Shown: piece by piece, positions 3,360-15,999 of the stretch | How the letters are laid out: each line of letters opens with the position of its first letter | Position numbering within the stretch: position 1 is the stretch's first letter | NCBI GenBank assembly: GCA_045535515.1 | Contig: JAZSLT010000017.1 | Coordinates: 8,931 to 72,930 of the forward strand | Direction: 5' to 3' | DNA: 64,000 bases | Source of the DNA: Clostridia bacterium | GTDB taxonomy: Bacteria > Bacillota > Clostridia > UMGS1883 > UMGS1540 | Program-made: the position numbers and the translations under genes | Notes under the pieces: model-generated | Databases searched by the model: none | What the model was told of the DNA's origin: nothing | The model's input: only the letters and a program-made list of their open reading frames with translations

Positions 3360-3375
3360 CTGCAGGAACAGAGTT

Positions 3376-3404: not shown

Positions 3405-3514
3405 CTGTTTTTTCAAAAAATATCATTTTTGTTTTTACCGCCGGCAAAGGGTTTATGTGCCGCCGCATTTTCCTACCGAAAATGCGGCGGCCTTCTATTA
3501 AATACGAAACCGCT

Positions 3515-4069
3515 TCAGCGGGAGGCAAGATATGCCTCGCGTCCCTTTTCGTACAGATTCGTTCCCTCGCTGTCGATGATAACCACAAGGGGCATATCCT
3601 CGACATAGAGCTTTCGGAGCGCCTCCGCACCCAAATCCTCGTAGGCAATCAGCTCGGCGCTTTTAATGCACTTTGCCAAAAGGGCACCGGCACCGCCGAT
3701 GGCGCCGAAGTACACGCCGCTATACTTCTTCATCGCATCAATAACCTCGGGCAATCGTGCGCCCTTTCCAATCATGCCTCTGGCGCCGACGCGCATCATC
3801 GTAGGGGCGTACGCATCCATTCTTCCGCTGGTGGTGGGACCGGCAGAGCCGATGACCTGTCCCGGCTTTGCGGGAGTGGGGCCTACATAGTAAATCGTGG
3901 CATCCTTCGGGTCAAAGGGCAGCTCCTCGCCTCTCTCAAGTGCCTCGCACATTCTTTTGTGGCCGGCATCGCGCGAGGTGTAGATGGTGCCTGTCAGGAG
4001 AACCTCTTCACCGGCTTTTAAGGTTTTGGCAAGCGCTTCGGTGAGCGGCAATTTGATTTTTCTGGCCAT
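3515..4069 (-). CDS. Class-I (Fe-S) fumarate hydratase / tartrate dehydratase, beta (C-terminal domain) subunit
   Basis: 184 aa. IYTSRDAGHKRM, GPTTSGRMD and GKGAR motifs are typical of the Fe-S hydro-lyase beta subunit. The start is 1 nt from the alpha-subunit stop. Confidence 0.85.
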   Translation of the reverse strand: MARKIKLPLTEALAKTLKAGEEVLLTGTIYTSRDAGHKRMCEALERGEELPFDPKDATIYYVGPTPAKPGQVIGSAGPTTSGRMDAYAPTMMRVGARGMIGKGARLPEVIDAMKKYSGVYFGAIGGAGALLAKCIKSAELIAYEDLGAEALRKLYVEDMPLVVIIDSEGTNLYEKGREAYLASR

Positions 4070-4070
4070 A

Positions 4071-4913
4071 TTAAAGCACCTCCGATTTATGCCGCGTTAC
4101 ATGGCAGTTAATATTGATGGCGCAGGGCATTCCTGCGATATGGGTAGGCATCGTTTCAATATTCAGGCCAATAGCCGTTGTCCGGCCGCCAAAGCCCTGC
4201 GGTCCGATGCCCATCTGGTTGATTTTTTCCAGCATTTCCTTTTCCAAATCCGCATAATAGGGGTCGGGGTGTTCGGAATCGACAGGACGCATGAGCGCCT
4301 TTTTAGCGAGAAGCGCCGCCTTGTCAAAGGTGCCGCCGATGCCAACGCCCACCACCATCGGCGGACAGGGGTTCGGGCCGGCAAGTTCTACCGTCTCGAG
4401 AATAAAGTTTTTAATGCCTTCAATGCCGTGAGAAGGCTTGAACATACAAATACGGCTCATATTTTCGCTGCCGAAGCCTTTGGGGCCTACGGTGATTTTC
4501 ACATTTTCGCCCGGCACAATTTCCGTATAAATCATGGCCGGTGTATTGTCGCCCGTGTTGCCGCGGCGCACAGGGTCCTTCACAACGGATTTTCTAAGAT
4601 ACCCCTTATCATAGCCGCGCCGCACGCCCTCGTGGATTGCCTCCGAGAGGTCACCCCCCACAAAATGTACATCCTGCCCGATTTCGAGGAACACGCAAGC
4701 CATGCCGGTATCCTGACAAATCGGGACATTTTCATTGTCGGCAATTTCAAAGTTTGTGATGATATTGTCCAAAACGCCTCTGGCTATCTCGCCGTCCTCA
4801 CAGGCACGGCAGGTGCGGATAGCACACTTTACATCCTCAGGCAAATGCGTATTGGCCTCAATGCAAAGCTTTTCTACCGTATCGGTAACCAGAGCCACAT
4901 TTATTTCACGCAT
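4071..4913 (-). CDS. Class-I (Fe-S) fumarate hydratase, alpha (N-terminal domain) subunit
   Basis: 280 aa. PICQDTGMA and the later GFGGR segment are typical of the Fe-S hydro-lyase alpha subunit. AAGGAG ribosome-binding site. Confidence 0.85.
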
Positions 4914-4925
4914 GGGTTTTCTCCT

Positions 4926-6197
4926 TTACTTAAATAAGATAATTAAAAACTGGGAAACCAGCACAACGGCAATCAAAGCGATGGGATAAGTCGCCGCGTA
5001 GGCAGCCGCCACCTCTTCTGTGCCGGCCGTATTGATAAGGGTACCGAGCGCCGGGGTGCTTGTCATACCGCCGGTAATGGAGCCGAGATTATTGAGAAGG
5101 CTTAATTTCAGTACATATTTTGCGAAAAGATAGCCGACAATCATGGGCACAATCGTCATAATGACGCCGTATACGAAGTACATCGGGTCAAAGGTTTCCA
5201 CAAATTTGGCACCGCCCGGAATGCCTGCCCCTATAAGAAACAGCATAAGACCTAATTCGCGGAACACCTTGAGGGTGGATTCCTGGGGCATAATGCTGAT
5301 GCGCCCCACTCTGCCAAAATGACCGAATACAAGCGCTAAGAGAAGGCAGCCGCCCGTAGTCGTGAGCGAAAAGGCTGTACCTTTGATGCCTTCCCCGGCC
5401 GCGAGAGAGGCATAGCCTGCACCGGTAAGCGGAATTTTAATCATCCCCACAATGACGCCGATAATGGCAGCCAAAGCGAAAGCACCAAAGCCGAAGCCGT
5501 CCAGATGGATCAGCTTTCCGGTATATGCCTTCTTCTGTCCGCCGTCGGAAACAGCCGTAAGCTTTGCTCTTTCCTCTTCCATGTTGGCTTTTGTAAATTT
5601 CGGGATGAGCTGTACAAAAAGAACAACGCCCAAAACACCAAATATGTAGGCAATACCGTGCCCTACGGAAACCAGACTTTCGAGGGCGGGATTTACCGTG
5701 TCCTTTGCCGCCGAGAACGCAGGCGTGGAGGTGAGGGAGCCGGAGAGGAGGCCCACTATCATAGCCGTAAAGCCTTCGCGCGTTTCAATAGCGCTGCCAT
5801 AACCCAGTACCTCGCCAAGATAAATACAGCCGACTGCGGAAAGACCGCCGGCCAAAATGATGAGAAGGCCCAAAAGGACATAGGACTTAAAGTTTTTCTT
5901 CATATTGCTGAAAAACTTGGGTCCTGCAATAAAACCTACCGAGGTAACAAATAAAACAAGTCCGAGGCTTTCAATAATCTTCAGCGCTTTATCGGTATAG
6001 GCGGGGAGCTGCCCTTCAAGCTGCGGATAGAAAAAGCAACCGAAAAGAAGCGCTACAATAAATACGCCGGCCGTACCCAGATTTACGCCTTTAACCGTAA
6101 TGCGACCAAGCGAATACCCAAGCGCTGCAATAACGAATACGCAAAACATCAGAAATGTAATTCCGGTGACAGGAATTACGCCGCCAAATAATGTCAT
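4926..6197 (-). CDS. AAE-family (Asp-Al_Ex duplicated permease domain) transporter without RCK-C domains; putative C4-dicarboxylate transporter
   Basis: 423 aa, polytopic, with two homologous halves (LFVTSVGFIAGPKFF / LFLIGAGIPGGAKFV). No TrkA-C-like cytoplasmic insert was recognised. Confidence 0.6.
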   Translation of the reverse strand: MTLFGGVIPVTGITFLMFCVFVIAALGYSLGRITVKGVNLGTAGVFIVALLFGCFFYPQLEGQLPAYTDKALKIIESLGLVLFVTSVGFIAGPKFFSNMKKNFKSYVLLGLLIILAGGLSAVGCIYLGEVLGYGSAIETREGFTAMIVGLLSGSLTSTPAFSAAKDTVNPALESLVSVGHGIAYIFGVLGVVLFVQLIPKFTKANMEEERAKLTAVSDGGQKKAYTGKLIHLDGFGFGAFALAAIIGVIVGMIKIPLTGAGYASLAAGEGIKGTAFSLTTTGGCLLLALVFGHFGRVGRISIMPQESTLKVFRELGLMLFLIGAGIPGGAKFVETFDPMYFVYGVIMTIVPMIVGYLFAKYVLKLSLLNNLGSITGGMTSTPALGTLINTAGTEEVAAAYAATYPIALIAVVLVSQFLIILFK

Positions 6198-6280
6198 AAT
6201 CCTACTTTCCTTTCCAAATCAATTACACACCGCAGGGCGAAAGCATGCCTTATGCCTTCGCCCTCCGCTTTATTCCTCTA

Positions 6281-7879
6281 TTATCTCTCGTGACGGGCAT
6301 ACTGCGGCAGGAGCAAGGGGGAAACCCCTTCTTCCGCAAGGTTTGCCTTTTCAAGTTCCTTCGCATACGCCGCAACATGGTCGAGATTCATCTTGCCGAG
6401 GGTAATGTCCTTTGCACGCGAAGATGCCGCCTTACCGGCATTTCTGCCGAATACGATAATATCAAGAAGGGAATTACCCATCAGCCGGTTTCTGCCGTGA
6501 ATACCGCCAACCGCCTCGCCGGCTACCAGGAGATTGGGGATGGCTTTTGTAAAGCCGTCGCCCCCGATTTCCAGACCGCCGTTTTGGTAATGCAGCGTGG
6601 GATATACGAGAATGGGGAGCTTTCGCATATCAATACCGTAGTTTAAGTACATACGGTGCATCGCCGGAATTCTCTTTTCAATCGTACCCTCGCCGCCAAT
6701 CATTTCAATCATCGGCGTATCCAGCCAGACGCCGCTGCCAAGGGGCGTGTCTACGCCGCGTCCTTCGGCACATTCGCGGATAATGGCAGATGCCGAAACA
6801 TCGCGCGTTTCAAGAGGATGGGCGTACGCTACGCCATCGCGGTTTACCAGCATCGCGCCGAGCGAGCGCACCTTCTCGGTAACGAGTGCGCCGAAAATCT
6901 GCGAGGGGTACGCAACGCCTGTGGGATGATACTGAATGGTATCCTGATAAAGAAGCGGTGCACCGGCGCGGTAGCCGAGAATCAGACCATCGGCCGTGGC
7001 GCCGTAGTGATTGGAGGTGGGGAAATTCTGGTAATGGAGTCTGCCGGCGCCGCCGGTTGCGATAATAACAGTTTTCGCGCGCGCGACGAGATAATCCTCC
7101 GTTTCCATGTTCATAAGCACAGCACCTGCCACCTGTCCCTTATCATCCTTGATAAGCTCCACCGCGGAGGTAAATTCCACAACGGGGATGGCGCGGTTTA
7201 TGACTTCATCGCGAAGGGTGCGCATGATTTCTGCGCCGGAATAGTCCTTACAGGCGTGCATTCTCTTTCTGGAGGTGCCGCCGCCATGCGTCGTAACCAT
7301 ACGGCCGTCCTCGTCCTTATCAAACATAACGCCAAGGGCATTGAGCCAGCGAATGGCATCGGGCGCTTCCATAACAAGACGGCGCAGAAGCTCGGGGCGT
7401 GCCGCAAAGTGGCCGCCGCCAAAAGCATCGAGGTAATGCTGGACGGGAGAATCGTTCTCCTTATCCGCCGCCTGAATACCGCCCTCGGCCATCATGGTAT
7501 TGGCATCGCCGATGCGAAGCTTTGTTACAATCATAACCTTCGCGCCTGCCTCGTGAGCCTCAATGGCCGCCGCAGAGCCGGCACCGCCACCGCCGATAAC
7601 GAGGACATCCACATCGTAATCGACCTTATCCAAATCAATTTTTTCGTTTAAAAGGCGGCTGTTGGAATGAAGAAGCTGCCCAAGCTCTCTCGGCACCTTC
7701 TGCCCTTTATTCGGGCCGATACCTATAGTCGTAAAGCCGTCCTCACGATAGTCGGGATGAAAGGCCCTAAGGAGCGCATCTTTTTCATCTGCCGTCATTC
7801 TGCGCGGCTCGGTGCCCATACGGGCGGCGCGCGTAGCTTCTACCTTCTTGATAGATTCGAGCATTTCTGCTGTAAACAT
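6281..7879 (-). CDS. FrdA/SdhA-superfamily FAD flavoprotein (soluble fumarate reductase-like)
   Basis: 532 aa with VLVIGGGGAGSAAA dinucleotide fold, HPTG, and GRNRLMGNSLLD. It has an N-terminal extension of about 90 residues before the FAD fold. Confidence 0.7.
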   Translation of the reverse strand: MFTAEMLESIKKVEATRAARMGTEPRRMTADEKDALLRAFHPDYREDGFTTIGIGPNKGQKVPRELGQLLHSNSRLLNEKIDLDKVDYDVDVLVIGGGGAGSAAAIEAHEAGAKVMIVTKLRIGDANTMMAEGGIQAADKENDSPVQHYLDAFGGGHFAARPELLRRLVMEAPDAIRWLNALGVMFDKDEDGRMVTTHGGGTSRKRMHACKDYSGAEIMRTLRDEVINRAIPVVEFTSAVELIKDDKGQVAGAVLMNMETEDYLVARAKTVIIATGGAGRLHYQNFPTSNHYGATADGLILGYRAGAPLLYQDTIQYHPTGVAYPSQIFGALVTEKVRSLGAMLVNRDGVAYAHPLETRDVSASAIIRECAEGRGVDTPLGSGVWLDTPMIEMIGGEGTIEKRIPAMHRMYLNYGIDMRKLPILVYPTLHYQNGGLEIGGDGFTKAIPNLLVAGEAVGGIHGRNRLMGNSLLDIIVFGRNAGKAASSRAKDITLGKMNLDHVAAYAKELEKANLAEEGVSPLLLPQYARHER

Positions 7880-7893
7880 AGCCTTCTCCCTCC

Positions 7894-8568
7894 TTATTTC
7901 TCCATCTCTCTTGTATTATATAATTCCTGCATTTCGGAAATGGGCTTTTGCATAATCTGTTCAATCATCTCGTCATAATCGCCGCGGTTGATTTCTTCTA
8001 CCCGGTTCTTAAGATGCTCTGTTTCGGGCGCAATATACTTGCCTACCAGACGGCGCGCCAGAAGGCCGACCATCGGATGGGAAATACCGGCCGGACAACG
8101 AACCGAGCAGCAGCCGCAGCCTACACAGTCAAACGATTCCTCGGCGCACTTTTCAAATTCGCCGCGCTGGGCGTAGGCTATATACTGCATTACATTCAGA
8201 CTCTGGGTACACGCCTTTGTACAGGCATTACAGCCGATGCAGCTGTAAATCTCCGGATAAAGCTCCATCATCACCTTCTGGTCGGGGCGTATTTCTTCTA
8301 TAGCATAAGTTCTCTTATCAGTCGGGAAGAACGGAATACTCGCCACATACATACCCTCCTGCACCTGCGTCTGGCAAGCTAAGCATGTTTTCAGCTCATT
8401 TTGCCCTTTGATGCGGTAGATAGTGGCACAGGCGCCGCAAAAGCCGTGACGGCAGCCGCATCCTCTTTTCAAGGTATACCCGGCATATTCCATGGCCGTC
8501 ATAATCGTCAAATCCGCCGGCACACTGTATTTCTTACCGAAAAAATATACATTTACCATATTTTCCAT
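7894..8568 (-). CDS. FrdB/SdhB-like iron-sulfur subunit (2Fe-2S plus two 4Fe-4S-type motifs)
   Basis: 224 aa with CGCRHGFCGAC...C, CIGCNACTKAC and CVGCGCCSVRCP motifs. Confidence 0.7.
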   Translation of the reverse strand: MENMVNVYFFGKKYSVPADLTIMTAMEYAGYTLKRGCGCRHGFCGACATIYRIKGQNELKTCLACQTQVQEGMYVASIPFFPTDKRTYAIEEIRPDQKVMMELYPEIYSCIGCNACTKACTQSLNVMQYIAYAQRGEFEKCAEESFDCVGCGCCSVRCPAGISHPMVGLLARRLVGKYIAPETEHLKNRVEEINRGDYDEMIEQIMQKPISEMQELYNTREMEK

Positions 8569-8591
8569 GTCTTTCCGCTCCTCTCTTAATA

Positions 8592-9440
8592 TTAGTTTGG
8601 CATTTCGTCTACTTCATCACAGCGGAACACCGGGCCGTCCTTGCAGACATATTTGGAGCCGATATTGCATCGGCCGCACTTGCCCACGCCGCATTTCATG
8701 CGAAGCTCCAGCGTTGTGTACACCTGTTCCTTGGAAAAACCAAGCTCCATAAGGCCCGCCAGCACAAACTTAATCATAATGGGGGGACCGCAGACGAGTG
8801 CCGTCTTATCGGTAGTAAAGCCGATTTCCTTGAGGTAGCTCGGAACAAAGCCTACATGGCCGTCCCAGCCCTCCTGCTCGCGGTCAATCGTCAGATAAAC
8901 ATTCACGCCTTCTGTTTTCTCCCAAACCTCGCGGATTTCTTGCAGCTGCACCAGGTCATCTGCCGAGCGCGAGCCGTAGAGAATATCAACTGTGCCGTAA
9001 TTTTCGCGATTATCCAGCACATAGTTTATCACGGAGCGAAGCGGTGCAAGGCCAATGCCGCCGGCAATAAACAGAAGGTTTTTGCCTTTCAGCTCTGTTT
9101 CTACGGGAAAGTGGTTGCCGTACGGCCCGCGCACCGTAATTTCGTCGCCTACGGAAAGGCCGTGGAGATAATCCGTCAGCTCTCCGCATTTTTTGATGCT
9201 AAATTCCTGAAACTCTTTATTCGTGGGCGAGGAGGTGATGGAGAACATCGCCTCCGAGATGCCGGGCACGCAAAGCATGGCACATTGGCCGGGCAGATGT
9301 TCAAAAAGCTTGCCGCCTTCGGGCGCGTTTACGCGGAAGGTCTTGACATCCGGTGTTTCCTGCCGGATATCCGTAATGATACCCACCTTGGGGATGAGCG
9401 TGTCTTCATAATACTGTGTATGGCAATTACATTCACACAT
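8592..9440 (-). CDS. FAD/NAD(P)H-binding oxidoreductase with C-terminal 2Fe-2S (FlxA / AsrB / PyrK-like)
   Basis: Ferredoxin-reductase fold with C-terminal CGVGKCGRC..C. Start moved to the ATG at 9440, which follows AGGAGGAG and abuts the upstream stop. Confidence 0.7.
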   Translation of the reverse strand: MCECNCHTQYYEDTLIPKVGIITDIRQETPDVKTFRVNAPEGGKLFEHLPGQCAMLCVPGISEAMFSITSSPTNKEFQEFSIKKCGELTDYLHGLSVGDEITVRGPYGNHFPVETELKGKNLLFIAGGIGLAPLRSVINYVLDNRENYGTVDILYGSRSADDLVQLQEIREVWEKTEGVNVYLTIDREQEGWDGHVGFVPSYLKEIGFTTDKTALVCGPPIMIKFVLAGLMELGFSKEQVYTTLELRMKCGVGKCGRCNIGSKYVCKDGPVFRCDEVDEMPN

Positions 9441-9441
9441 A

Positions 9442-10470
9442 TTATTTCTCCTCCTTCCCGGCAAACGCCTGCATGACCTTTACAATATTCAGCCCTGTGG
9501 GGCATTTTTCCACGCAGCGGCCGCAGCCTACGCAGGAGAACATACCGTCGTAATTAGCCGGATAATAAACGAGCTTGTGCATAAAGCGCTGGCGGTACCG
9601 TTGCATCTGGCTGGTGCGGTTGTTGCCGTGCGCCATCATGGTAAAATCGGAATACATACAGGAATCCCAGCAGCGATAGCGCTGTACGCCTTCGCCCGTC
9701 TTGTAATCTTTTATATCATAGCATTGGCAGGTGGGGCAGACAAAGGTACAGGTGCCGCACGCGATGCACGGCCTGTAAAGCTCTTCCCAAAGGGGAGAAT
9801 TAAACTTTTCCTTTTCCGCCTCTTTTCCCCAGCCCTCCGTTGTAAGCGAAGCATACGGAAGCTTTTTCATCATCGCGCGGATGCGTTCTCTTTCCTTTTC
9901 TGCTTCGCCTTCGTCGGCATCGGTAAAGAAGGCCGAAAGTCGCGCCGTCAGCGCCGTTCCCTTTTCGGTTTTGGCCTGCCAGTACAAGGTGTCCCCCACC
10001 ATGACCGTATCTACATCGGCACCGCCCTCGGCGCTGTCGATACCAAAGGTCGTACAAAAGCAGGTTTCCTCCGGTGTGCTGCAGGCCAGAGAAACGACGA
10101 TGCCGTGCTCTCTTCTCGCCTTATAAAACGAGTCCACCGGCTCGGAAAGAAATACATTGTCCAAAACGGCAAAGCCGCGGACATCACAGGCACGAACGCC
10201 AAACAAAACGAAGGTTTCGTCCATCCGCTCGCCCGGTGTTATCTTCATTTTTCCCTCTACTCTTTCGCAGGTATACAGCGTTTCGCTTTGCGGAAAAAAG
10301 ACATCTTTGGGGGATTTTACGGTTTTTAAGGTTTCGAGGTCTACCTCCGCCCCCTCGCTCCAGAGCGCAAAGTTTGTTACCTTTCCGCTTTTCACGGGTA
10401 CAAATAAGCTGGCCTCTTCGCAAATCGCGGCATAGAGCGCGGGGAGGTTTGCTTTTTCCATCTTTTTCAT
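9442..10470 (-). CDS. 4Fe-4S dicluster protein (FlxB / AsrA / sulfhydrogenase-beta-like)
   Basis: 342 aa with CIACGTCTFVCPTCQC and CVGCGRCVEKCP motifs. Confidence 0.65.
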   Translation of the reverse strand: MKKMEKANLPALYAAICEEASLFVPVKSGKVTNFALWSEGAEVDLETLKTVKSPKDVFFPQSETLYTCERVEGKMKITPGERMDETFVLFGVRACDVRGFAVLDNVFLSEPVDSFYKARREHGIVVSLACSTPEETCFCTTFGIDSAEGGADVDTVMVGDTLYWQAKTEKGTALTARLSAFFTDADEGEAEKERERIRAMMKKLPYASLTTEGWGKEAEKEKFNSPLWEELYRPCIACGTCTFVCPTCQCYDIKDYKTGEGVQRYRCWDSCMYSDFTMMAHGNNRTSQMQRYRQRFMHKLVYYPANYDGMFSCVGCGRCVEKCPTGLNIVKVMQAFAGKEEK

Positions 10471-10475
10471 TTCGG

Positions 10476-11450
10476 TCAGCTCCTTTCCCGAGCTTCGGAA
10501 GGCTCGATATCCTCTTTCGTAAATGCCGTGAGCGGCCCTTTTGTTTCCGCATCGGCACCGGCTTGATAGTCGCCGTAAAATTCGTTTATATCGGCAATCA
10601 GCTTGCGGTTAAAAAGGTGCAGCGGAATATTCTGCGGACAAACGCGGCTGCATTCGCCGCAATCGGTACACCGGCCTGCCACATGAAACGCGCGGATGAC
10701 ATGGAACATCTTTTCTTCAAAGGAATCGGTGTTCGCTTTTTGCGCGCTGTCAAACTTCGTGCTGTCAAACACGCACTTGCGGCAGCTGCACGCCGGGCAA
10801 ACATTCCGGCACGCATTACAGCGGATGCACCGGGAAAGCTCACTTTGGAAAAAGGCAAACTTTTCTTCGGGGCACATCGCCTCAATTTCGCGGACCTGTG
10901 CCAAGCGGTCTTCGTCTGCCGTTTCTTGGCTTTCGCCTATGATTTCATCATAAATTTTATGCTCCTTGCCCTTGCAGACATGGCAGCGCTCGAGCATCGC
11001 CTCGCGATACGGCATTTCTTTTTCGCCGTGCAGCGTCTTTATACAAAGGGTTTCGGAAGGGGCGAAGGCATCGGCACCTTCCACCGCCAAGATGCCGCGG
11101 ATACCGGCTTCTTTGATTTTCTCGCCGCTGATTTTGCCGCAGCAGCCTACGCCGATGATATACGCCTTATCGCGTAAAATGCGGTTTTCCTTCAAAAGCT
11201 GATTGAAACTATAAGTGTCACAAGGCTTTAAAAATACTAAGGTCCGGCCTTCCATTTTGGAGGCCTCTATCATATATTTACTGAGGTTTGCGCCGCAAAA
11301 GCCATCATATACAAAGTCTGCGAGCGCGGCTTCGGTTTCAAAGAAGGCCGGCTCGGGATTATACGCAAGGTCGCCCTTCTTCCAGCCCAGCACGCGCTGG
11401 ACGCTACCGTCTGCCAAAAGGGCCTTGGCGCGGTTTACTAATTCTTGCAT
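10476..11450 (-). CDS. Fe-S protein (FlxC-like)
   Basis: 324 aa with CIRCNACRNVCPACSC and CTDCGECSRVCP. The N-terminal half resembles FrhB-type domains. Confidence 0.6.
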   Translation of the reverse strand: MQELVNRAKALLADGSVQRVLGWKKGDLAYNPEPAFFETEAALADFVYDGFCGANLSKYMIEASKMEGRTLVFLKPCDTYSFNQLLKENRILRDKAYIIGVGCCGKISGEKIKEAGIRGILAVEGADAFAPSETLCIKTLHGEKEMPYREAMLERCHVCKGKEHKIYDEIIGESQETADEDRLAQVREIEAMCPEEKFAFFQSELSRCIRCNACRNVCPACSCRKCVFDSTKFDSAQKANTDSFEEKMFHVIRAFHVAGRCTDCGECSRVCPQNIPLHLFNRKLIADINEFYGDYQAGADAETKGPLTAFTKEDIEPSEARERS

Positions 11451-11875
11451 CTTAAATCCCCCAATCTTACATTTTCACCGAGAGAGCGGATTTTTTCTAC
11501 AAATTCGTTCATCACCGTAGAGAACTTCACGCCTTCTGCCGCCGATACCCATTCTACACGGGTACGGCCCTTCTCTACGCCGAGGTAGTCAAGGAGCGAG
11601 AAGAGCAGCGTCATTCTTCTTCTGGCGTAATAATTACCTGTGGAATAGTGGCAATCGCCGGGGTGACAGCCGCAGATAATCACCCCGTCCGCCCCCTTTT
11701 CAAAGGCGCGGAGAATGAACATGGGGTTGACTCTGCAGGAGCAGGGTACGCGGATGATTTTGACATCCGCCGGATACGCAAGACGGCTGCTGCCGGCAAG
11801 GTCTGCGCCTGCATAGCTGCACCAATTACAGCAAAAGGCAACGATTTTCGGTCTGAATTCTTTTTCTACCGGCAT
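11438..11875 (-). CDS. mvhD: MvhD / FlxD (methyl-viologen-reducing hydrogenase delta subunit family)
   Basis: 145 aa with IVAFCCNWCSYAGADLAG...VPCSCRV...IICGCHPGDCHY, the classic MvhD pattern. Confidence 0.85.
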   Translation of the reverse strand: MPVEKEFRPKIVAFCCNWCSYAGADLAGSSRLAYPADVKIIRVPCSCRVNPMFILRAFEKGADGVIICGCHPGDCHYSTGNYYARRRMTLLFSLLDYLGVEKGRTRVEWVSAAEGVKFSTVMNEFVEKIRSLGENVRLGDLRCKN

Positions 11876-13854
11876 ATAGCATCCACCTCCGCAATAATTT
11901 GTCTGTTGGAAAAGCCTTTAAGGTCCATCGCGCCGGAGGGACAGGCTACCGTACAGGCACCGCAGCCCTGACAAAGCGCGCCGTTTACCACCGCCACGCG
12001 TCTTGTTTCGCGGATGCCGTGGTCGTTTACTTCTTTCTCCTCGTAGCTGATAGCGCCGTAGGGACAGACATGCTGACATACGGAGCAGCCGTTACAAAGC
12101 AGAATGTCGGACTCGGCCGTGCACGGATTTGTGGTCAGCTTATCCTTCGCTAAAAGGCCGATAACCTTTACCGCCGCCGCACCGGCCTGCGAAACCGTTT
12201 CGGGAATATCCTTCGGTCCCTGACAGACGCCGGAGAGAAATACACCGGCTGTCGGCGATTCAACGGGGCGGAGCTTCGGATGGGCTTCTGTTAAAAAGTT
12301 ATTCGTATCAATACTGGCGGTGAGCATCGTGGCAATATTCCGCACCGAGGCGGAGGGCTCTATCGCCGTGGCCAGCACCACCATATCGGCCTTTATCTGC
12401 AGCTGCTTCTGGTCAAGAAGGTCGCTGCCCTGCACCAGGAGCGTGCCGTCCGGCTGGGGCACTACCTTGCCCACCTGCCCTTTTATATACTCAACGCCGT
12501 ATTCCTCCACGGCGCGGCGATAAAACTCATCAAAGTTCTTGCCGGGTGTACGCACATCAATATAAAACACCGTCACATGGACATCCGGATATTTATCGCG
12601 GATGAGCATGGCGTGCTTAGCCGTATACATACAGCAAATCTTGGAGCAATACGGCTTTCCTCTATGGTCATCACAGCGGCTGCCCACGCATTGGATAAAC
12701 ACAATTTCCTTCGGCGCCTTGCCGTCGGACAATCTCTCGAGATGTCCCTTTGTGGGGCCGGCGGCATTCATAATGCGCTCGAGCTCCAGCGAGGTGATAA
12801 CATCCGCACTCTCGTTATAGGCATATTCGCCGTATTTATCGAGGTTTATCGTATCAAAGCCTGTGGCTACCACAATGGCGCCATACTGCCGCGTGATGAT
12901 TTCGTCCTTCGCGGTATAATCAATCGCGCCGGCCTGACAAACCTTTTCGCAAAGGCCGCATTTGCCGGTTTTAAACTTTATGCAGTTTTCCCTGTCGATA
13001 ACCGGCACATTTGGGATAGCCTGTGCAAACGGCGTGTAAATCGCGCTTCGGGTGCCGAGGCCGCGGTTAAATTCGCTCTTGGCTTTCTTAGACGGACATT
13101 TTTCCTGGCAAACGCCGCATCCTGTGCATTTATTCATATCCACGCTTCTGGCCTTCTTCCGGATATCCACCGAAAAGTCGCCCACAAAGCCGGACACCTT
13201 TTCCACCTCACTATAGGTGAAAATATTGATTTTTTCGTGTGCTGCCGCCTCCACCATTTTCGGGGTGAGAATACAGGCGGAGCAGTCAAGCGTAGGGAAG
13301 GTCTTGTCAAGCTGGCTCATCCGGCCGCCGATACTGGGGGTTTTTTCCACAATATCTACTTCGTAGCCGGCGTCGGCAATATCCAGCGCCGTCTGAATAC
13401 CGGCAATACCGCCGCCAATGACGAGCGCGCGCTTTACAACGGCACTCTCGCCCGGCTCCAGATGCGTATTTAAATGCACCTTGGCAATCGCCGCGCGGGC
13501 TAAGATGATGGCCTTCTCCGTGGCTTCTTCTATATCCTTATGAATCCACGAGCATTGCTCGCGGATATTTGCAATCTCTACCATATAAGGGTTTAGGCCT
13601 GCACGCTCGGCCGCTTTGCGGAAGGTGGCCTCGTGCATACGGGGCGAGCAGGAGCAAACAACAATACCGCCTAAATTTTTCTCTTTTATGGCGGCGGCAA
13701 TCAGCGCCTGACCGGCCTCGGAGCACATATACGGATAGTCCTCCGCGTGTACAACGCCCTGTTCTTTTTTTGCGGCCTCCACCACGCGTTTTACATCTAC
13801 CGTTGCCGCAATATTACTGCCACAATGGCAAACGAATACACCGATTCTTTGCAT
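11866..13854 (-). CDS. hdrA: Heterodisulfide reductase subunit A-like flavoprotein
   Basis: 662 aa with an N-terminal Cys-rich domain (VFVCHCGSNIA), VIGGGIAGIQTALD FAD fold, several ferredoxin CxxCxxCxxxCP motifs and a C-terminal MvhD-like part. Confidence 0.85.
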   Translation of the reverse strand: MQRIGVFVCHCGSNIAATVDVKRVVEAAKKEQGVVHAEDYPYMCSEAGQALIAAAIKEKNLGGIVVCSCSPRMHEATFRKAAERAGLNPYMVEIANIREQCSWIHKDIEEATEKAIILARAAIAKVHLNTHLEPGESAVVKRALVIGGGIAGIQTALDIADAGYEVDIVEKTPSIGGRMSQLDKTFPTLDCSACILTPKMVEAAAHEKINIFTYSEVEKVSGFVGDFSVDIRKKARSVDMNKCTGCGVCQEKCPSKKAKSEFNRGLGTRSAIYTPFAQAIPNVPVIDRENCIKFKTGKCGLCEKVCQAGAIDYTAKDEIITRQYGAIVVATGFDTINLDKYGEYAYNESADVITSLELERIMNAAGPTKGHLERLSDGKAPKEIVFIQCVGSRCDDHRGKPYCSKICCMYTAKHAMLIRDKYPDVHVTVFYIDVRTPGKNFDEFYRRAVEEYGVEYIKGQVGKVVPQPDGTLLVQGSDLLDQKQLQIKADMVVLATAIEPSASVRNIATMLTASIDTNNFLTEAHPKLRPVESPTAGVFLSGVCQGPKDIPETVSQAGAAAVKVIGLLAKDKLTTNPCTAESDILLCNGCSVCQHVCPYGAISYEEKEVNDHGIRETRRVAVVNGALCQGCGACTVACPSGAMDLKGFSNRQIIAEVDAICR

Positions 13855-13860
13855 CCTTCC

Positions 13861-14250
13861 TCACCTCCTGTATCTTCGAAATGCGCTCACAAGCAGCTGC
13901 TGCGGCATTTTCTCATCTAAAAGCGCCGGAATTTCGTCAGGCGAAAGTCCCGTATTATCACGCTCGCGCACGACTATCTGGCGCGCCGCATCGATAAGCT
14001 TTGCCGGCTGCACATCGCGCGGGCAACGCTCCACGCAGGCAAAGCAGGAAAGGCATCGCCAGAGGGATTCTGATTTGGCCAGCGCCTCCACATCTCCACG
14101 AAGCACATAGGAAACAAACTGATGGGGCTTTATATCCATTTCGTTAAAGGACGGACAGGTAGCGGAGCATTTTCCGCATTTCATGCACTTATACGGGTTT
14201 ACACCGCTGATTTCGCGCACGCGTTCCACCTGTTTTTCTGCTGTGTTCAC
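13861..14250 (-). CDS. hdrC: Heterodisulfide reductase subunit C-like (2x 4Fe-4S)
   Basis: 129 aa with CMKCGKCSATCP and CLSCFACVERCP. GTG start preceded by AAGGAGG. Confidence 0.8.
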   Translation of the reverse strand: MNTAEKQVERVREISGVNPYKCMKCGKCSATCPSFNEMDIKPHQFVSYVLRGDVEALAKSESLWRCLSCFACVERCPRDVQPAKLIDAARQIVVRERDNTGLSPDEIPALLDEKMPQQLLVSAFRRYRR

Positions 14251-14253
14251 CCT

Positions 14254-15033
14254 CTACGCCTCCTTTACGCCGAGCGCCTCGGCCAAAAGCTCAGTAAAAT
14301 AATATACCGGCAATTTCTCGCTCTTATTTAAGTTATACATACAAAGGGGGCACGCAGTAAGGAGCATTTCGGCCCCAAAGCCTGCGGCGCTTTCCATGAT
14401 TTTTTCGCACATCGCACCGGCCGCCTCGCCGTCTTTTAAGGAAATATATCCGCCGCAGCATTCGTTGCGGTAGGCATAGGAAACAGGCTCTGCACCGATG
14501 GCGCGGATGAAATCCTCCATAATCGTCGGATTTTCCGGGTCATCAAATCCCATTATCTTCCCCGGACGAAGAAGCAGGCAACCGTAATAGGCGCCGATTT
14601 TCTTCCCGGTCAGGGGGTTTTTTACCTTCTTTTTCAGCTCGTCAAACCCGATTCTGTCGCGCAGTACCTCTAAAAAGTGCAGCACCTCGGTTTCGCCCAT
14701 ATACGGCTTTTCGTTTCCCATATATAAGTTGGCGGCATCGCGGATGCGAGGCACATTTTTCATGTCATCGTTCACGCGCACGAGAACATGGTGACACGCC
14801 GAGCAAAGCGTAACAAGCGTCTGCCCCTTTTCGCCGGCTGAAGCGAGCGCGCGCACGGAGGAAAGCTTGGTGGCAATTTCATCGCTTCCCAAAGGATACA
14901 CACCGCCGCAGCATTGCCAGTTTTCTATCTCTTCCAGTTCAAAGCCCAGCGCCTCGGCTGATTTTCTGGCGTAGGCGTCGAGCTCCTTCGCCTTTGTCCG
15001 CAGTGTGCAACCGGGATAATAGCTGTATTTCAT
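14254..15033 (-). CDS. hdrB: Heterodisulfide reductase subunit B-like (two CCG domains)
   Basis: 259 aa. It starts YYPGCTL and has two CCGG motifs (NWQCCGG, NECCGG). Confidence 0.8.
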   Translation of the reverse strand: MKYSYYPGCTLRTKAKELDAYARKSAEALGFELEEIENWQCCGGVYPLGSDEIATKLSSVRALASAGEKGQTLVTLCSACHHVLVRVNDDMKNVPRIRDAANLYMGNEKPYMGETEVLHFLEVLRDRIGFDELKKKVKNPLTGKKIGAYYGCLLLRPGKIMGFDDPENPTIMEDFIRAIGAEPVSYAYRNECCGGYISLKDGEAAGAMCEKIMESAAGFGAEMLLTACPLCMYNLNKSEKLPVYYFTELLAEALGVKEA

Positions 15034-15051
15034 GGTTTTCGCCCCTCTCTT

Positions 15052-15999
15052 TTAGCTAAGGTCCAGCTGATTGATAACGCCCTTTAAGACATCGGCGCTG
15101 TGATGCAGTTTTTTGTATTCTTCTTCACTCAGCGGTATAGGGAGCTTGCCGATAACACCGCCGGCGCCGATGCGCGTCAGCGTGCTGAGGCAAACATCCT
15201 CAAGGTCATACTCCCCGTGCATCATGGTAGAAACCGTTACGATGGAGGTTCTGGGTGCTACCAATATGCAGCAAAGGCGGCATACGCTCATGGCTACGGC
15301 ATAGTAGGTTGCCCCCTTGCCTTCAATAATGAGACCGCCGGATTTCCGTACTCTTTCTTCGATAAGCGCCGTATCCATCTCCGGCAGGTTATCGCCGCAG
15401 GCTCTGGCAAGGCGCGTATATTCCTCCACCCCTACTGTGGAAATCTGGGCGCAGGACCACGGCACGAAGGAAGTGTCTCCATGCTCACCGAAAACATAGG
15501 CATGGATACTTTTTTGCGCTACGCCAAAGTGCTCCGAAAGCGCATGGCGAAGGCGCGAGGTATCGAGAAGCGTGCCGGAGCCGAGAATCTGTCTCTCCGG
15601 AATGCCGGATTTTTTCTGGAATACATAGGTGATAATATCTACGGGATTACTTACAATAATATACATCGCATCCGGTGCCGCTGCCGCGATTTTCGGTGCG
15701 ATTTCCTTGATAACATCCACATTGGTCTGTGCAAGGTCAATACGGCTCTGCCCCGGTTTTCTCGCAATACCGGAGGTGATAATGACAATATCGGAGCCTT
15801 TCGCATCCGCATAATCACCGCTTGTAACGGAGATAGCATCGCGAAAACTTGTGCCCTGCATGATGTCCATAACCTCGCCACCGGCTTTTTTCTTATTGAT
15901 GTCAATCAGAACAATCTCCGTGGCAATACTTTCTGTAGAAAGTGTGTAAGCGATGGTGGAGCCAACGCTGCCGGCGCCAATGATAGTGATTTTACTCAT
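15052..15999 (-). CDS. LDH/MDH-family NAD-dependent 2-hydroxyacid dehydrogenase; predicted malate dehydrogenase specificity (Arg at the Q102 position)
   Basis: 315 aa with IIGAGSVGS NAD fold, the loop GIARKPGQSRIDL, and the catalytic GEHGD. Confidence 0.8.
   Translation of the reverse strand: MSKITIIGAGSVGSTIAYTLSTESIATEIVLIDINKKKAGGEVMDIMQGTSFRDAISVTSGDYADAKGSDIVIITSGIARKPGQSRIDLAQTNVDVIKEIAPKIAAAAPDAMYIIVSNPVDIITYVFQKKSGIPERQILGSGTLLDTSRLRHALSEHFGVAQKSIHAYVFGEHGDTSFVPWSCAQISTVGVEEYTRLARACGDNLPEMDTALIEERVRKSGGLIIEGKGATYYAVAMSVCRLCCILVAPRTSIVTVSTMMHGEYDLEDVCLSTLTRIGAGGVIGKLPIPLSEEEYKKLHHSADVLKGVINQLDLS

What the first reader, a model, noticed from the sequence alone, without database searches (positions are those of the whole stretch)
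3515..15999. 13-gene operon joining an HdrABC-MvhD-FlxABC-type module to an anchor-less fumarate reductase, fumarase, an MDH-like dehydrogenase and an AAE transporter
**Seen in sequence.** Thirteen minus-strand genes are packed with gaps from -13 to +83 nt. In order of transcription they are:
- an LDH/MDH-family dehydrogenase
- hdrB (two CCG motifs), hdrC, hdrA
- mvhD/flxD
- two polyferredoxin-like Fe-S proteins (FlxC/FlxB-like)
- a FAD/NAD(P)H plus 2Fe-2S reductase (FlxA/AsrB-like)
- an SdhB/FrdB-like Fe-S subunit and an SdhA/FrdA-like flavoprotein
- an AAE-family permease
- the alpha and beta subunits of class-I fumarate hydratase

No membrane anchor (FrdC/D) and no DsrC-like thiol protein is encoded in the operon.

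**Established knowledge.**
- FlxABCD-HdrABC of Desulfovibrio is an NADH-dependent Hdr complex proposed to bifurcate electrons.
- HdrA carries the bifurcating FAD in methanogen Mvh-Hdr.
- CCG-domain proteins are natural partners of SdhAB-type modules: TfrB of the methanogen thiol:fumarate reductase, and SdhE of type-E succinate:quinone oxidoreductases.

**Inference.** The operon encodes the complete reductive branch oxaloacetate -> malate -> fumarate -> succinate. The fumarate-reducing step appears wired directly to an NAD(P)H-oxidising Hdr/Flx module. The fumarate/succinate couple is a high-potential acceptor. The arrangement is therefore what one would expect for NADH-driven, fumarate-dependent ferredoxin reduction by flavin-based electron bifurcation. 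I am not aware of a biochemically characterised enzyme of this type.
Basis: partly seen in the sequence, partly recalled or inferred. Interest (0 to 1): 0.85.

Follow-up and report, generated by a model that had tools for sequence, protein, structure and literature searches.

The report
Hdr/Flx-linked soluble fumarate reductase operon
A gut Clostridia bacterium carries a 13-gene operon that makes succinate from oxaloacetate and joins a membrane-free fumarate reductase to an NADH-oxidising Hdr/Flx module, probably to also make reduced ferredoxin; this idea was published for another bacterium in 2019-2020 but the enzyme has never been tested biochemically.

Summary
Thirteen minus-strand genes (3515-15999) lie between their own promoter region and a strong hairpin, with gaps of -13 to +83 nt.

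They encode:
- an LDH-like malate dehydrogenase with Arg at the specificity position
- HdrB, HdrC, HdrA and MvhD
- FlxC, FlxB and FlxA
- a divergent SdhB-like Fe-S protein and a TfrA/FrdA-like flavoprotein with all fumarate-site residues
- an AAE permease
- a two-subunit class I fumarase

The nine-gene redox core plus fumarase keeps the same order in all 80 related loci examined, out of at least 594 hits. These come mostly from gut Oscillospiraceae, Acutalibacteraceae and Lachnospiraceae, including Blautia.

Archaeal relatives of FrdA (51-59% identical) sit in hdrC-hdrB-frdB-frdA clusters. There the electron-donor module is Mvh hydrogenase or an FrhB-like protein instead of Flx.

Best reading: NAD(P)H-driven, fumarate-pulled ferredoxin reduction by electron bifurcation at HdrA, wired directly through Fe-S clusters.

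The reading is not new. The 'succinate operon' of Pseudoclostridium thermosuccinogenes has the same gene order and gene sizes, and the same hypothesis was published for it. A related flx-hdr-tfrAB association is described in tubeworm symbionts. I found no biochemical or structural characterisation. This is a new member of an already proposed kind.

The parts
16056..16084 (-). Probable sigma-70 promoter of the operon: -35 TTGATA (16084-16079), 17-nt spacer, extended -10 TGaTATAAA (16064-16056)
   Evidence: Read by eye. The consensus scan lists a second candidate at 16237-16209. Function is not shown.
16067..16129 (-). Two Rex-operator-like inverted repeats: TTGTGACATTTTTATCAA (16129-16112) and TTGATAAAGTTTTGACAA (16084-16067, overlapping the -35 element)
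   Evidence: In 53 orthologous upstream regions, sites within 1 mismatch of TTGTTAANNNNTTAACAA occur in 11 loci (0.05 expected from dinucleotide shuffles). Sites within 2 mismatches occur in 24 loci (0.52 expected). The Rex consensus is taken from established knowledge.
15052..15999 (-). LDH-like malate dehydrogenase (315 aa)
   Evidence: Ldh_1_N/C. Arg at the position equivalent to Q102 (GIARKPGQSR) in 37/37 orthologues; R109, D168, R171 and H195 are also conserved. It passes the NCBIfam L-LDH cutoff (326.6 vs 303.55) and narrowly misses the MDH subfamily cutoff (278.5 vs 283).
14254..15033 (-). HdrB (259 aa), two CCG motifs
   Evidence: PF02754 x2. About 110 bits to HdrB chains of solved Hdr complexes. 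All 10 motif cysteines are conserved in at least 95% of 53 orthologues.
13861..14250 (-). HdrC (129 aa, GTG start), 2x[4Fe-4S]
   Evidence: TIGR03290 and NF041779 matches, below cutoff. Eight cysteines conserved.
11866..13854 (-). HdrA (662 aa), FAD plus six Fe-S cluster motifs; candidate bifurcation site
   Evidence: 683 bits, residues 3-660 against 5-649 of 5ODC_A. HdrA2 model 792 bits. 31 of 32 cysteines conserved.
11438..11875 (-). MvhD/FlxD (145 aa)
   Evidence: PF02662, E 2e-55.
10476..11450 (-). FlxC-like Fe-S protein (324 aa)
   Evidence: The C-terminal half matches FdhB of Hdr-Fdh supercomplexes (9t1s_M, 7bkb_E, 8rvu_E; E about 1e-22). 16 cysteines conserved.
9442..10470 (-). FlxB-like Fe-S protein (342 aa)
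   Evidence: Fer4_22. Sulfhydrogenase beta and AsrA models. 9nez_B, E 1.3e-49.
8592..9464 (-). FlxA-like NAD(P)H:flavin reductase with 2Fe-2S (282-290 aa; start at ATG 9440 or TTG 9464)
   Evidence: FAD_binding_6, NAD_binding_1 and DHODB_Fe-S_bind. HydG and AsrB models.
7894..8568 (-). FrdB-like subunit (224 aa): 2Fe-2S (C39x4C44x2C47...C62) plus two 4-Cys cubane motifs
   Evidence: hhalign against E. coli FrdB/SdhB gives 97.3% probability. A natural FrdB-FrdA fusion exists (P0123).
6281..7879 (-). FrdA/TfrA-like flavoprotein (532 aa), non-covalent FAD, 88-aa N-terminal extension, no C-terminal SdhA domain
   Evidence: AF2 model pLDDT 80, pTM 0.86. Best fold match is E. coli FrdA 1kf6_A, E 1.6e-29.
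4926..6197 (-). AAE-family permease (423 aa, no TrkA_C insert); candidate succinate exporter or C4-dicarboxylate exchanger
   Evidence: Asp-Al_Ex x2. TIGR01625 passes its cutoff. Its position varies or it is absent in orthologous loci.
4071..4913 (-). Class I fumarate hydratase alpha subunit (280 aa)
   Evidence: NF004885, 418 bits against cutoff 276. The TtdA model reaches only 189 against 365.
3515..4069 (-). Class I fumarate hydratase beta subunit (184 aa)
   Evidence: NF005310, 288 bits against cutoff 238.
3459..3491 (.). 14-bp GC-rich hairpin directly after the last gene; probable operon end
   Evidence: It is followed by a perfect TTGACA-17-TATAAT promoter for two tRNA-Ser genes.

Best explanation
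The operon encodes the cytoplasmic reductive branch oxaloacetate -> malate -> fumarate -> succinate. Its last step is probably catalysed by one soluble nine-subunit complex, FlxABC-MvhD-HdrABC-FrdAB.

Proposed electron path:
1. NAD(P)H is oxidised at the FAD of FlxA.
2. Electrons pass through the 2Fe-2S cluster of FlxA, the clusters of FlxB and FlxC, and the MvhD 2Fe-2S cluster to the FAD of HdrA.
3. At HdrA the electron pair is split.
4. One electron goes downhill through HdrC, the two non-cubane clusters of HdrB and the three clusters of FrdB to the non-covalent FAD of FrdA. There it reduces fumarate (+30 mV).
5. The other electron goes uphill through the ferredoxin-like domains of HdrA to ferredoxin.

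Net reaction: 2 NADH + fumarate + Fd(ox) -> 2 NAD+ + succinate + Fd(red).

Reduced ferredoxin could then drive Rnf or hydrogen formation. That would give quinone-free Clostridia energy conservation from fumarate reduction. The AAE permease would export succinate or exchange it for another C4-dicarboxylate. Rex-like operators suggest induction when NADH/NAD+ is high.

Shown here: gene content, cofactor motifs, catalytic residues, synteny, distribution and enrichment of the operator-like sites.

Inferred: that the nine proteins form one complex, that the wiring is direct, that bifurcation occurs, the direction of the reaction, the transporter's substrate and regulation by Rex.
For: - **Invariant order.** The order hdrB-hdrC-hdrA-mvhD-flxC-flxB-flxA-frdB-frdA-(AAE)-fumA-fumB is kept in 80/80 related loci wherever the contig allows. 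The flanks are not conserved, so the cluster is the unit under selection.
- **FrdAB needs a donor.** FrdAB has no NAD(P)H-binding domain of its own. In Gammaproteobacteria the same pair is followed by a single NuoF-like gene. In Archaea it sits in hdrC-hdrB-frdB-frdA clusters with Mvh hydrogenase, an FrhB/FdhB-like protein or an HdrA-MvhD fusion, often next to a 2-oxoacid:ferredoxin oxidoreductase. The donor changes while Hdr-FrdAB stays.
- **Fumarate site.** H242, T254, E255, R286, H354 and R399 (E. coli SdhA numbering) are present in 80/80 orthologues. The position of NadB Glu121 is Gly. The best fold match is E. coli FrdA.
- **HdrA is complete.** It is full-length and colinear with the structurally characterised bifurcating HdrA, and its cluster cysteines are conserved.
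- **Precedent for CCG-to-FrdB electron flow.** The NCBIfam TfrB model is matched piecewise by FrdB (positions 19-87), HdrC (123-219) and HdrB (263-485). The methanogen enzyme therefore already joins these parts in one chain. P0123 is a natural FrdB-FrdA fusion.
- **FlxC resembles a docking subunit.** It resembles FdhB, a subunit of solved formate-dependent Hdr supercomplexes.
- **Literature.** The same cluster in P. thermosuccinogenes is highly expressed (FPKM about 2400-12700), is co-regulated and was proposed to bifurcate. Blautia luti extracts have high fumarate reductase and MDH activities and high frdAB transcription.
- **Regulation.** Rex-like operators are strongly enriched upstream of the cluster.
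Against: - No biochemical, structural or transcript data exist for this organism.
- I found no purified enzyme of this type in the paper library. The closest solved structure to FrdA scores only 226 bits.
- HdrB keeps both intact CCG motifs, which in Hdr and Tfr are thiol/disulfide sites. A thiol intermediate is therefore not excluded.
- The FrdB-FrdA-NuoF arrangement shows that the pair can work with a simple, non-bifurcating NADH input.
- The Blautia luti study modelled the enzyme as plainly NADH-dependent.
- The identity of the P. thermosuccinogenes genes was matched by order and length only, not by sequence.
- The 80 loci are related lineages, so their synteny does not amount to 80 independent observations.
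Confidence: 0.5

Rival explanations
1. Non-bifurcating NADH:fumarate reductase. The nine proteins form a complex, but all electrons from NAD(P)H end on fumarate and ferredoxin is not reduced.
For: The same FrdBA pair is coupled to a single NuoF-like NADH module in Gammaproteobacteria. The Blautia luti study assumes an NADH-dependent fumarate reductase.
Against: A seven-gene Flx-Hdr module, with a complete HdrA whose ferredoxin-domain cysteines are all conserved, is retained in every locus. One NuoF-like subunit evidently suffices for simple NADH input. In Archaea the cluster often sits next to ferredoxin-dependent 2-oxoacid oxidoreductases.
Confidence: 0.18
2. Thiol-mediated coupling. Flx-Hdr bifurcates onto a disulfide, either a small molecule or a protein encoded elsewhere. 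The resulting thiols are then re-oxidised with fumarate in a Tfr-like reaction, as happens with CoM/CoB in methanogens.
For: Both CCG motifs of HdrB are intact. Tfr is a biochemical precedent, and TfrA is the best family match for FrdA. The literature describes Flx-Hdr as reducing 'ferredoxin (and thiols)', and a DsrC-like route has been suggested for the symbiont cluster.
Against: FrdB has no CCG domain, and there is no second CCG protein in the operon that could oxidise thiols. No thiol-carrier gene is conserved in or beside the cluster. The tight hdrB-frdB adjacency in Archaea fits a direct contact better.
Confidence: 0.12
3. The FrdA-like enzyme acts on a substrate other than fumarate, such as aspartate or another unsaturated dicarboxylate. 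Alternatively, the complex runs in the oxidative (confurcating) direction from succinate.
For: The protein passes no curated SdhA/FrdA/TfrA cutoff and belongs to an unnamed family. Scores against NadB models are only moderately lower. AAE transporters include aspartate:alanine exchangers.
Against: All fumarate-site residues are conserved and NadB Glu121 is absent. The gene is constantly linked to fumarase, and usually to an Arg102 MDH. The archaeal locus L093 has malic enzyme-fumA-fumB-frdB-frdA. P. thermosuccinogenes and Blautia excrete succinate.
Confidence: 0.08
4. Co-located but separate enzymes. Flx-Hdr serves an unrelated acceptor, and FrdAB takes electrons from free ferredoxin or another donor.
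For: Nothing here shows physical association directly. In Riftia symbionts tfrAB expression did not follow the rest of the cluster.
Against: The adjacency persists across Bacteria and Archaea despite changes in donor module and genomic context. Expression is co-regulated in P. thermosuccinogenes.
Confidence: 0.07

Closest known systems
'Succinate operon' of Pseudoclostridium thermosuccinogenes (Koendjbiharie and van Kranenburg preprint 2019; PMC7282089, 2020)
   Same: Same order: HdrB, HdrC, five genes (HdrA to FlxA), FrdB, FrdA. Near-identical gene lengths: 783/780, 324/390, 5347/5263, 675/675 and 1602/1599 nt. Linked to fumarate hydratase. Same proposed NADH-dependent, ferredoxin-reducing fumarate reductase.
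   Different: There the fumarase gene comes first and the last gene is a roughly 83-aa hypothetical protein. Here a two-subunit fumarase comes last, an AAE permease is inserted and an Arg102 LDH-like MDH leads the operon. Sequence identity could not be measured. Neither enzyme has been characterised biochemically.
FlxABCD-HdrABC of Desulfovibrio vulgaris (Ramos et al. 2015, as cited)
   Same: Same seven protein types: an NAD(P)H/FAD/2Fe-2S FlxA, two Fe-S proteins, an MvhD-like FlxD and HdrABC.
   Different: The proposed acceptor there is DsrC, linked to ethanol metabolism. Here there is no DsrC, the gene order is hdrBCA-flxDCBA, and an FrdAB pair is appended as the likely terminal acceptor module.
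MvhADG-HdrABC and Fdh-Hdr supercomplexes of methanogens (PDB 5ODC, 7BKB, 8RVU)
   Same: HdrA is colinear over its full length (683 bits). HdrB, HdrC and MvhD are homologous. FlxC resembles FdhB.
   Different: The donor is H2 or formate and the acceptor is CoM-S-S-CoB. Here the donor module is NAD(P)H-type and the candidate acceptor is fumarate through FrdAB.
Thiol:fumarate reductase TfrAB of Methanothermobacter
   Same: TfrA is the best-scoring family for FrdA. True TfrA-type proteins are about 42% identical to it. TfrB combines the same modules: 2Fe-2S, a dicluster domain and two CCG domains.
   Different: Here the TfrB modules are split into FrdB, HdrC and HdrB. FrdA scores 331 bits against a cutoff of 718, lacks the C-terminal domain and has a conserved 88-aa N-terminal extension. 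There is no CoM/CoB context.
flxABCD-hdrABC/korABCD/tfrAB rTCA clusters of tubeworm symbionts and Thioflavicoccus (PMC6315080, PMC11636981)
   Same: A published proposal that Flx-Hdr shuttles electrons to a soluble Tfr-type fumarate reductase and supplies ferredoxin to OGOR.
   Different: The context is autotrophic rTCA in Gammaproteobacteria. I did not retrieve those loci, so homology to this FrdAB family is not verified.
E. coli quinol:fumarate reductase FrdABCD
   Same: Best structural match for the FrdA model (1kf6_A, TM 0.65, 32% identity). Catalytic residues are shared. FrdB is remotely homologous.
   Different: FrdABCD is membrane-anchored and quinol-dependent, has covalent FAD and carries a 3Fe-4S cluster. 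Here there is no anchor, Asn replaces the flavinylated His, and a fourth cysteine turns the 3Fe-4S motif into a 4-Cys motif.
Bcd-EtfAB (butyryl-CoA dehydrogenase/Etf) of clostridia
   Same: Works alike in principle: NADH-dependent reduction of a C=C bond at about 0 mV drives ferredoxin reduction (established knowledge).
   Different: The protein families are unrelated and the bifurcating flavin sits in Etf rather than HdrA.

Membership tests
P. thermosuccinogenes-type 'succinate operon' (Flx-Hdr + FrdAB + fumarase) | Gene order HdrB-HdrC-HdrA-MvhD-FlxC-FlxB-FlxA-FrdB-FrdA next to fumarate hydratase | tested here: met
   Coordinates in the paper's supplement give the same order and near-identical lengths, and the text describes the same content. 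Sequence identity was not measurable.
FlxABCD-HdrABC | All seven subunit types are present with their cofactor motifs | tested here: met
FlxABCD-HdrABC | NADH-dependent reduction of ferredoxin and a disulfide (DsrC) | not testable with these tools
   No DsrC-like gene lies in or beside the cluster. Activity needs biochemistry.
Bifurcating HdrA | Full-length HdrA architecture: N-terminal cluster, FAD domain, inserted and C-terminal ferredoxin domains | tested here: met
   Residues 3-660 align to 5-649 of 5ODC_A at 683 bits. 31 of 32 cysteines are conserved.
SdhA/FrdA flavoprotein | FAD_binding_2 fold with the dicarboxylate-site residues H242, T254, E255, R286, H354 and R399 | tested here: met
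SdhA/FrdA flavoprotein | Covalent 8-alpha-histidyl FAD and the C-terminal helical domain (PF02910); curated model cutoffs | tested here: not met
   The His is replaced by Asn in 80/80 orthologues. There is no PF02910 hit and the chain ends about 45 residues after the FGRxAG motif. All SdhA/FrdA cutoffs are missed.
TfrA (thiol:fumarate reductase) | NCBIfam NF004900 equivalog cutoff (718 bits) and full-length match | tested here: not met
   331 bits, covering model positions 6-430 of 546. A true TfrA-type relative (P0216) scores 765.
TfrB | One chain carrying 2Fe-2S, two cubane clusters and two CCG domains | tested here: not met
   The modules are split over FrdB, HdrC and HdrB, which match model positions 19-87, 123-219 and 263-485.
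L-aspartate oxidase (NadB) | Glu121 and the NadB model cutoffs | tested here: not met
   Gly occupies the Glu121 column. TIGR00551 scores 251 against a cutoff of 453. NadB is only rank 36 in the fold search.
SdhB/FrdB Fe-S subunit | N-terminal 2Fe-2S domain plus a C-terminal domain with 4Fe-4S and 3Fe-4S clusters | tested here: inconclusive
   hhalign gives 97.3% probability, colinear over both domains. Direct HMM hits are weak. The second motif has four cysteines rather than three. The AF2 model was unusable, with pLDDT 42.
Malate dehydrogenase (LDH-like group) | Arg at position 102 (Gln in LDH), together with R109, D168, R171 and H195 | tested here: met
   The curated models disagree: the L-LDH cutoff is passed and the MDH subfamily cutoff is missed by 4.5 bits. 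Enzyme specificity was not assayed.
Class I (Fe-S) fumarate hydratase, two-subunit type | Alpha and beta subunits pass the curated equivalog cutoffs and score above the tartrate dehydratase models | tested here: met
AAE (aspartate:alanine exchanger) transporter family | Two Asp-Al_Ex membrane repeats | tested here: met
   The central TrkA_C domains of typical members are absent and the substrate is unknown.

The most novel reading that the evidence does not exclude
hdrC-hdrB-frdB-frdA may be an old, widespread module in which fumarate, through a TfrA-like FrdAB pair wired directly to HdrBC, takes the place of heterodisulfide as the high-potential acceptor of HdrA-based electron bifurcation. 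The donor modules would be exchangeable: Flx/NAD(P)H in gut Clostridia, Mvh/H2 in Asgard archaea, and FrhB-like or HdrA-MvhD fusions in Bathyarchaeia and other archaea. If so, this would be a new biochemical class of bifurcating enzyme. It would explain quinone-free energy conservation during succinate formation by abundant gut Lachnospiraceae and Oscillospiraceae. It would also give a concrete substrate for 'orphan' Hdr/Mvh complexes in non-methanogenic archaea.
Probability: 0.45. Interest if true: 0.8.

Novelty: new member of a known kind. Interest (0 to 1): 0.45.

Why it matters
**Gut physiology.** Succinate is a major gut metabolite, and many of its clostridial producers are not known to have a quinone-linked fumarate reductase. 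If their fumarate reductase bifurcates, succinate formation yields reduced ferredoxin, and through Rnf it yields ATP. That would change the fermentation balances, hydrogen budgets and energetics assumed for Blautia, Dorea, Faecousia and their relatives. A 2026 study of Blautia luti still assumes a simple NADH-dependent enzyme.

**Enzymology.** Such an enzyme would be the first HdrA-based bifurcating system with an organic C=C acceptor.

**Archaea.** The archaeal relatives suggest an answer to what Hdr/Mvh complexes reduce in archaea that lack methanogenesis.

**This finding.** The present window adds a well-conserved member with a complete pathway context. It does not add the idea itself.

Tried and rejected
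- **FrdB structure.** AlphaFold2 with 27 close homologues gave pLDDT 42, which is unusable. Profile-profile comparison replaced it.
- **P. thermosuccinogenes sequences.** They could not be retrieved. The single genome-contig scan returned only the best 80 of at least 594 hits, all at 79% identity or more, and the 50%-identity representatives did not include it.
- **Papers not held.** The 2018 AEM paper and the 2019 Preprints.org paper are not in the library. The link was made through gene coordinates in the 2020 supplement instead.
- **L-aspartate oxidase.** Considered for the flavoprotein and rejected.
- **L-tartrate dehydratase.** Considered for the hydratase and rejected.
- **Lactate dehydrogenase.** Considered for the first gene and judged unlikely because of Arg102.
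- **Conserved accessory gene.** I looked in the flanks of the 80 loci for a thiol carrier, regulator or PEP carboxykinase. None is conserved; only small membrane proteins occur downstream, in 7-9 loci.
- **Standalone relatives.** A distant relative (L088/L089, 40% identity) has neither FrdB nor Hdr beside it. A Prochlorococcus homologue has only FrdB. Not every family member is Hdr-linked.
- **Rfam.** No riboswitch or leader was found in the operon's upstream region.

Full report
**1. Observation**

The ORF list shows thirteen consecutive minus-strand genes from 15999 down to 3515. Their spacings are 18, 3, 6, -10, -13, 5, 1, 23, 14, 83, 12 and 1 nt.

Upstream lies a T-box-controlled leuA-leuCD-leuB operon and a 56-codon ORF. 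A 275-nt AT-rich gap follows, with promoter-like hexamers.

Downstream there is a 14-bp GC-rich hairpin at 3459-3491. It is followed by a perfect sigma-70 promoter and two tRNA-Ser genes. The stated boundaries therefore look like a real transcription unit, although no transcript data exist for this organism.

The rest of the window is ordinary chromosome of a spore-forming strict anaerobe: SpoVAD, anaerobic ribonucleotide reductase, tmRNA and other housekeeping genes.

**2. What the genes are**

*First gene.* It belongs to the LDH/MDH family. It passes the NCBIfam L-LDH cutoff and narrowly misses the MDH one. It carries Arg where LDHs have Gln102 (GIARKPGQSR). So do all 37 orthologues recovered in related loci. 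By established knowledge, Arg102 is the determinant of oxaloacetate specificity, so the gene is best read as an LDH-like malate dehydrogenase.

*Hdr subunits.*
- HdrB has two complete CCG motifs, with 10 conserved cysteines.
- HdrC has two 4-Cys motifs.
- HdrA aligns end to end with the HdrA of the solved Mvh-Hdr complex at 683 bits.
- MvhD is unambiguous.

*Flx subunits.*
- FlxB resembles sulfhydrogenase beta and AsrA.
- FlxA resembles sulfhydrogenase gamma and AsrB, with FAD, NAD(P)H and 2Fe-2S motifs.
- The C-terminal half of FlxC resembles FdhB of formate-dependent Hdr supercomplexes.

*Fumarase and transporter.* Both fumarase subunits pass the curated fumarate hydratase cutoffs and score far above the tartrate dehydratase models. 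The permease has the two AAE repeats but lacks the usual TrkA_C insert.

**3. The fumarate reductase pair**

The 532-aa flavoprotein passes no curated model. TfrA is best at 331 bits against a cutoff of 718.

Aligned with E. coli SdhA, FrdA and NadB, it shows the following:
- It keeps all dicarboxylate-site residues (H242, T254, E255, R286, H354, R399) in 80/80 orthologues.
- It has Asn in place of the flavinylated His.
- It has Gly at the position of NadB-specific Glu121.
- It lacks the C-terminal domain.
- It has an 88-residue N-terminal extension. Its motifs (HPD, GxNxG) are invariant from Clostridia to Archaea.

An AlphaFold2 model built on 42 sequences reached pLDDT 80 and pTM 0.86. Its best PDB match is E. 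coli FrdA, and NadB comes only at rank 36.

The 224-aa partner has a CxxxxCxxC...C 2Fe-2S motif and two 4-Cys motifs, with 15 conserved cysteines. Ordinary searches call it a generic ferredoxin. Profile-profile comparison with E. coli FrdB/SdhB gives 97% probability and is colinear over both domains. The site that binds 3Fe-4S in the quinone-linked enzymes has a fourth cysteine here.

A natural FrdB-FrdA fusion protein exists (P0123).

**4. Conservation**

One scan of species-representative genomes found at least 594 relatives of the flavoprotein. The best 80 are 79-92% identical. They come from gut and rumen MAGs and isolates of Oscillospiraceae, Acutalibacteraceae and Lachnospiraceae, including Blautia schinkii, B. 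intestinihominis, Dorea, Mediterraneibacter and Lachnospiraceae bacterium 3-2.

In every locus the order HdrB-HdrC-HdrA-MvhD-FlxC-FlxB-FlxA-FrdB-FrdA-FumA-FumB is kept as far as the contig reaches. The MDH gene precedes it in about 37 loci. The AAE gene moves or is missing. The flanks are not conserved, and no thiol-carrier gene accompanies the cluster.

**5. Distant relatives change the picture most**

Family members at 40-59% identity were placed in their genomic contexts.
- Marine Gammaproteobacteria have frdB-frdA followed by a NuoF-like NADH module.
- An Asgard archaeon MAG has korDABC-hdrA-mvhD-mvhG-mvhA-hycI-hdrC-hdrB-frdB-frdA. Its hdrA was not called by the gene finder but is present.
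- A MAG labelled Halobacteria archaeon has hdrC-hdrB-hdrA-(HdrA-like)-mvhD-FrhB/FdhB-like-frdB-frdA.
- One contig (L087) has kor-hdrA-mvhD-hdrC-hdrB-frdB-frdA. Three others have hdrC-hdrB-frdB-frdA with an HdrA-MvhD fusion beside it, two of them also with kor. Their closest named relatives are Bathyarchaeota.
- One Bathyarchaeota genome has malic enzyme-fumA-fumB-frdB-frdA, with an HdrB-like gene 7 kb away.
- Two relatives stand without Hdr.

The FrdAB pair is thus a module that needs an external electron input. In anaerobes that input is repeatedly an Hdr complex whose donor part varies.

**6. Mechanism**

The most economical reading has three parts:
- Fumarate, through FrdAB, replaces heterodisulfide as the high-potential acceptor of HdrA-based bifurcation.
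- NAD(P)H enters through FlxABC-MvhD.
- Ferredoxin is the low-potential product.

Thermodynamically this parallels the Bcd-Etf system (established knowledge).

Direct wiring is favoured over a thiol shuttle for three reasons:
- FrdB has no CCG domain.
- There is no second CCG protein in the operon.
- The methanogen TfrB already joins FrdB-, HdrC- and HdrB-like modules in one chain.

The contrast between a single NuoF-like partner in Gammaproteobacteria and a seven-gene Flx-Hdr partner in ferredoxin-based anaerobes argues that the Hdr part does more than pass electrons from NADH.

Rex-operator-like palindromes are strongly enriched upstream of the cluster: 24 of 53 loci have a site within two mismatches, against 0.5 expected. 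Two such sites occur in this window, one of them over the -35 element. This fits an NADH-consuming pathway.

All of this is inference from sequence. Complex formation, bifurcation and direction of the reaction are untested.

**7. Literature**

*P. thermosuccinogenes.* PMC7282089 (2020) describes a 'succinate operon' with fumarate hydratase, a seven-gene Flx-Hdr complex, a two-gene fumarate reductase and a small hypothetical protein. It is about 4-fold regulated by CO2. The paper cites a 2019 preprint that proposes a novel bifurcating fumarate reductase. The gene coordinates in its supplement give the same order and almost the same lengths as here.

*Tubeworm symbionts.* PMC6315080 (2019) and PMC11636981 (2024) describe flxABCD-hdrABC interspersed with korABCD and tfrAB in rTCA clusters of tubeworm symbionts. 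They propose a joint complex.

*What is missing.* I found no biochemical characterisation in seven searches. No close homologue of the flavoprotein is in the PDB.

*Gut acetogens.* A 2026 study of Blautia luti measured fumarate reductase and MDH activities and frdAB transcription. It modelled the enzyme as NADH-dependent and did not mention Hdr.

*Archaeal genomics.* These papers list cytoplasmic fumarate reductase and Hdr/Mvh separately and leave the Hdr substrate open.

**8. Verdict**

The operon and the hypothesis have already been published for another Clostridia species, so this is a new member of a proposed kind whose biochemistry is still unproven.

New elements from this work:
- the breadth of the cluster in gut Clostridia
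- the Arg102 MDH and the Rex-like sites
- the definition of the FrdA family features
- the archaeal hdrCB-frdBA clusters with exchangeable donor modules

Noticed in passing
window 1-3100: This segment is 37-40% GC against about 52% elsewhere. It holds a tyrosine recombinase (364-1284, minus strand) and a weak M78-peptidase-like ORF (1888-2613). It abuts two tRNA-Ser genes (3111-3202, 3273-3359). It is probably an integrated mobile element at tRNA-Ser.
   Followed up: partly
window 3010-3077 (-): Rfam Gut-1 RNA match (56.6 bits, gathering score 50) directly downstream of the second tRNA-Ser, at the edge of the low-GC segment. Its function is unknown.
   Followed up: no
window 21057-21302 (-): T-box leader upstream of leuA. 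The leuA-leuC-leuD-leuB operon (16484-21102) ends just before the succinate operon, with a 56-codon ORF of no known family at 16278-16446.
   Followed up: partly
window 15052-15999 (-): The first gene passes NCBI's L-lactate dehydrogenase equivalog cutoff, so pipelines would name it LDH. It has Arg at the Q102 specificity position in all 37 orthologues. PDB entry 1Y6J, deposited as a C. thermocellum L-LDH, also has Arg there. This may be a systematic misannotation of LDH-like MDHs in Clostridia.
   Followed up: partly
window 16067-16129 (-) and upstream regions of L001-L080: Rex-operator-like palindromes (TTGTTAANNNNTTAACAA type) are strongly enriched upstream of the cluster in related genomes: 11 of 53 loci within 1 mismatch, against 0.05 expected.
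   Followed up: partly
L094 1-11656 (Asgardarchaeia MAG, GCA_052584985.1): The cluster reads korDABC-hdrA-mvhD-mvhG-mvhA-hycI-hdrC-hdrB-frdB-frdA. Here an H2-oxidising Mvh-Hdr complex is joined to the same FrdAB pair (FrdA 59% identical). The hdrA at 2617-4539 was not called as a gene in the source annotation.
   Followed up: partly
L087, L095, L096, L097, L098 (archaeal contigs): hdrC-hdrB-frdB-frdA is a recurrent four-gene core. The accompanying HdrA forms vary: separate, fused to MvhD, or duplicated. L095 adds an FrhB/FdhB-like protein, and 2-oxoacid:ferredoxin oxidoreductase genes are often adjacent.
   Followed up: partly
L084-L086 9366-12891 (Gammaproteobacteria metagenome contigs): A three-gene unit frdB-frdA-NuoF-like (Complex1_51K + NADH_4Fe-4S). 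It suggests a simple soluble NADH:fumarate reductase built on the same FrdAB module.
   Followed up: no
protein P0123 (727 aa, NCBI contig of 7.7 kb): A natural fusion of the FrdB-like part (residues 1-221, 37% identical to the window protein) and the FrdA-like part (229-727, 54% identical).
   Followed up: partly
window 6281-7879 (-), residues 1-88: The N-terminal extension of the flavoprotein is modelled with high confidence. Its invariant residues (R17, R20, H41-P42-D43, G55, N57, G59) are shared by Bacteria and Archaea. Its role is unknown; it might contact FrdB or substitute for the missing C-terminal domain.
   Followed up: partly
L090 6001-8357 (Prochlorococcus sp. MIT 1201, CP138947.1): A 44%-identical FrdA-like gene followed by an FrdB-like gene sits in a cyanobacterial genome with no Hdr or NADH module nearby.
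   Followed up: no
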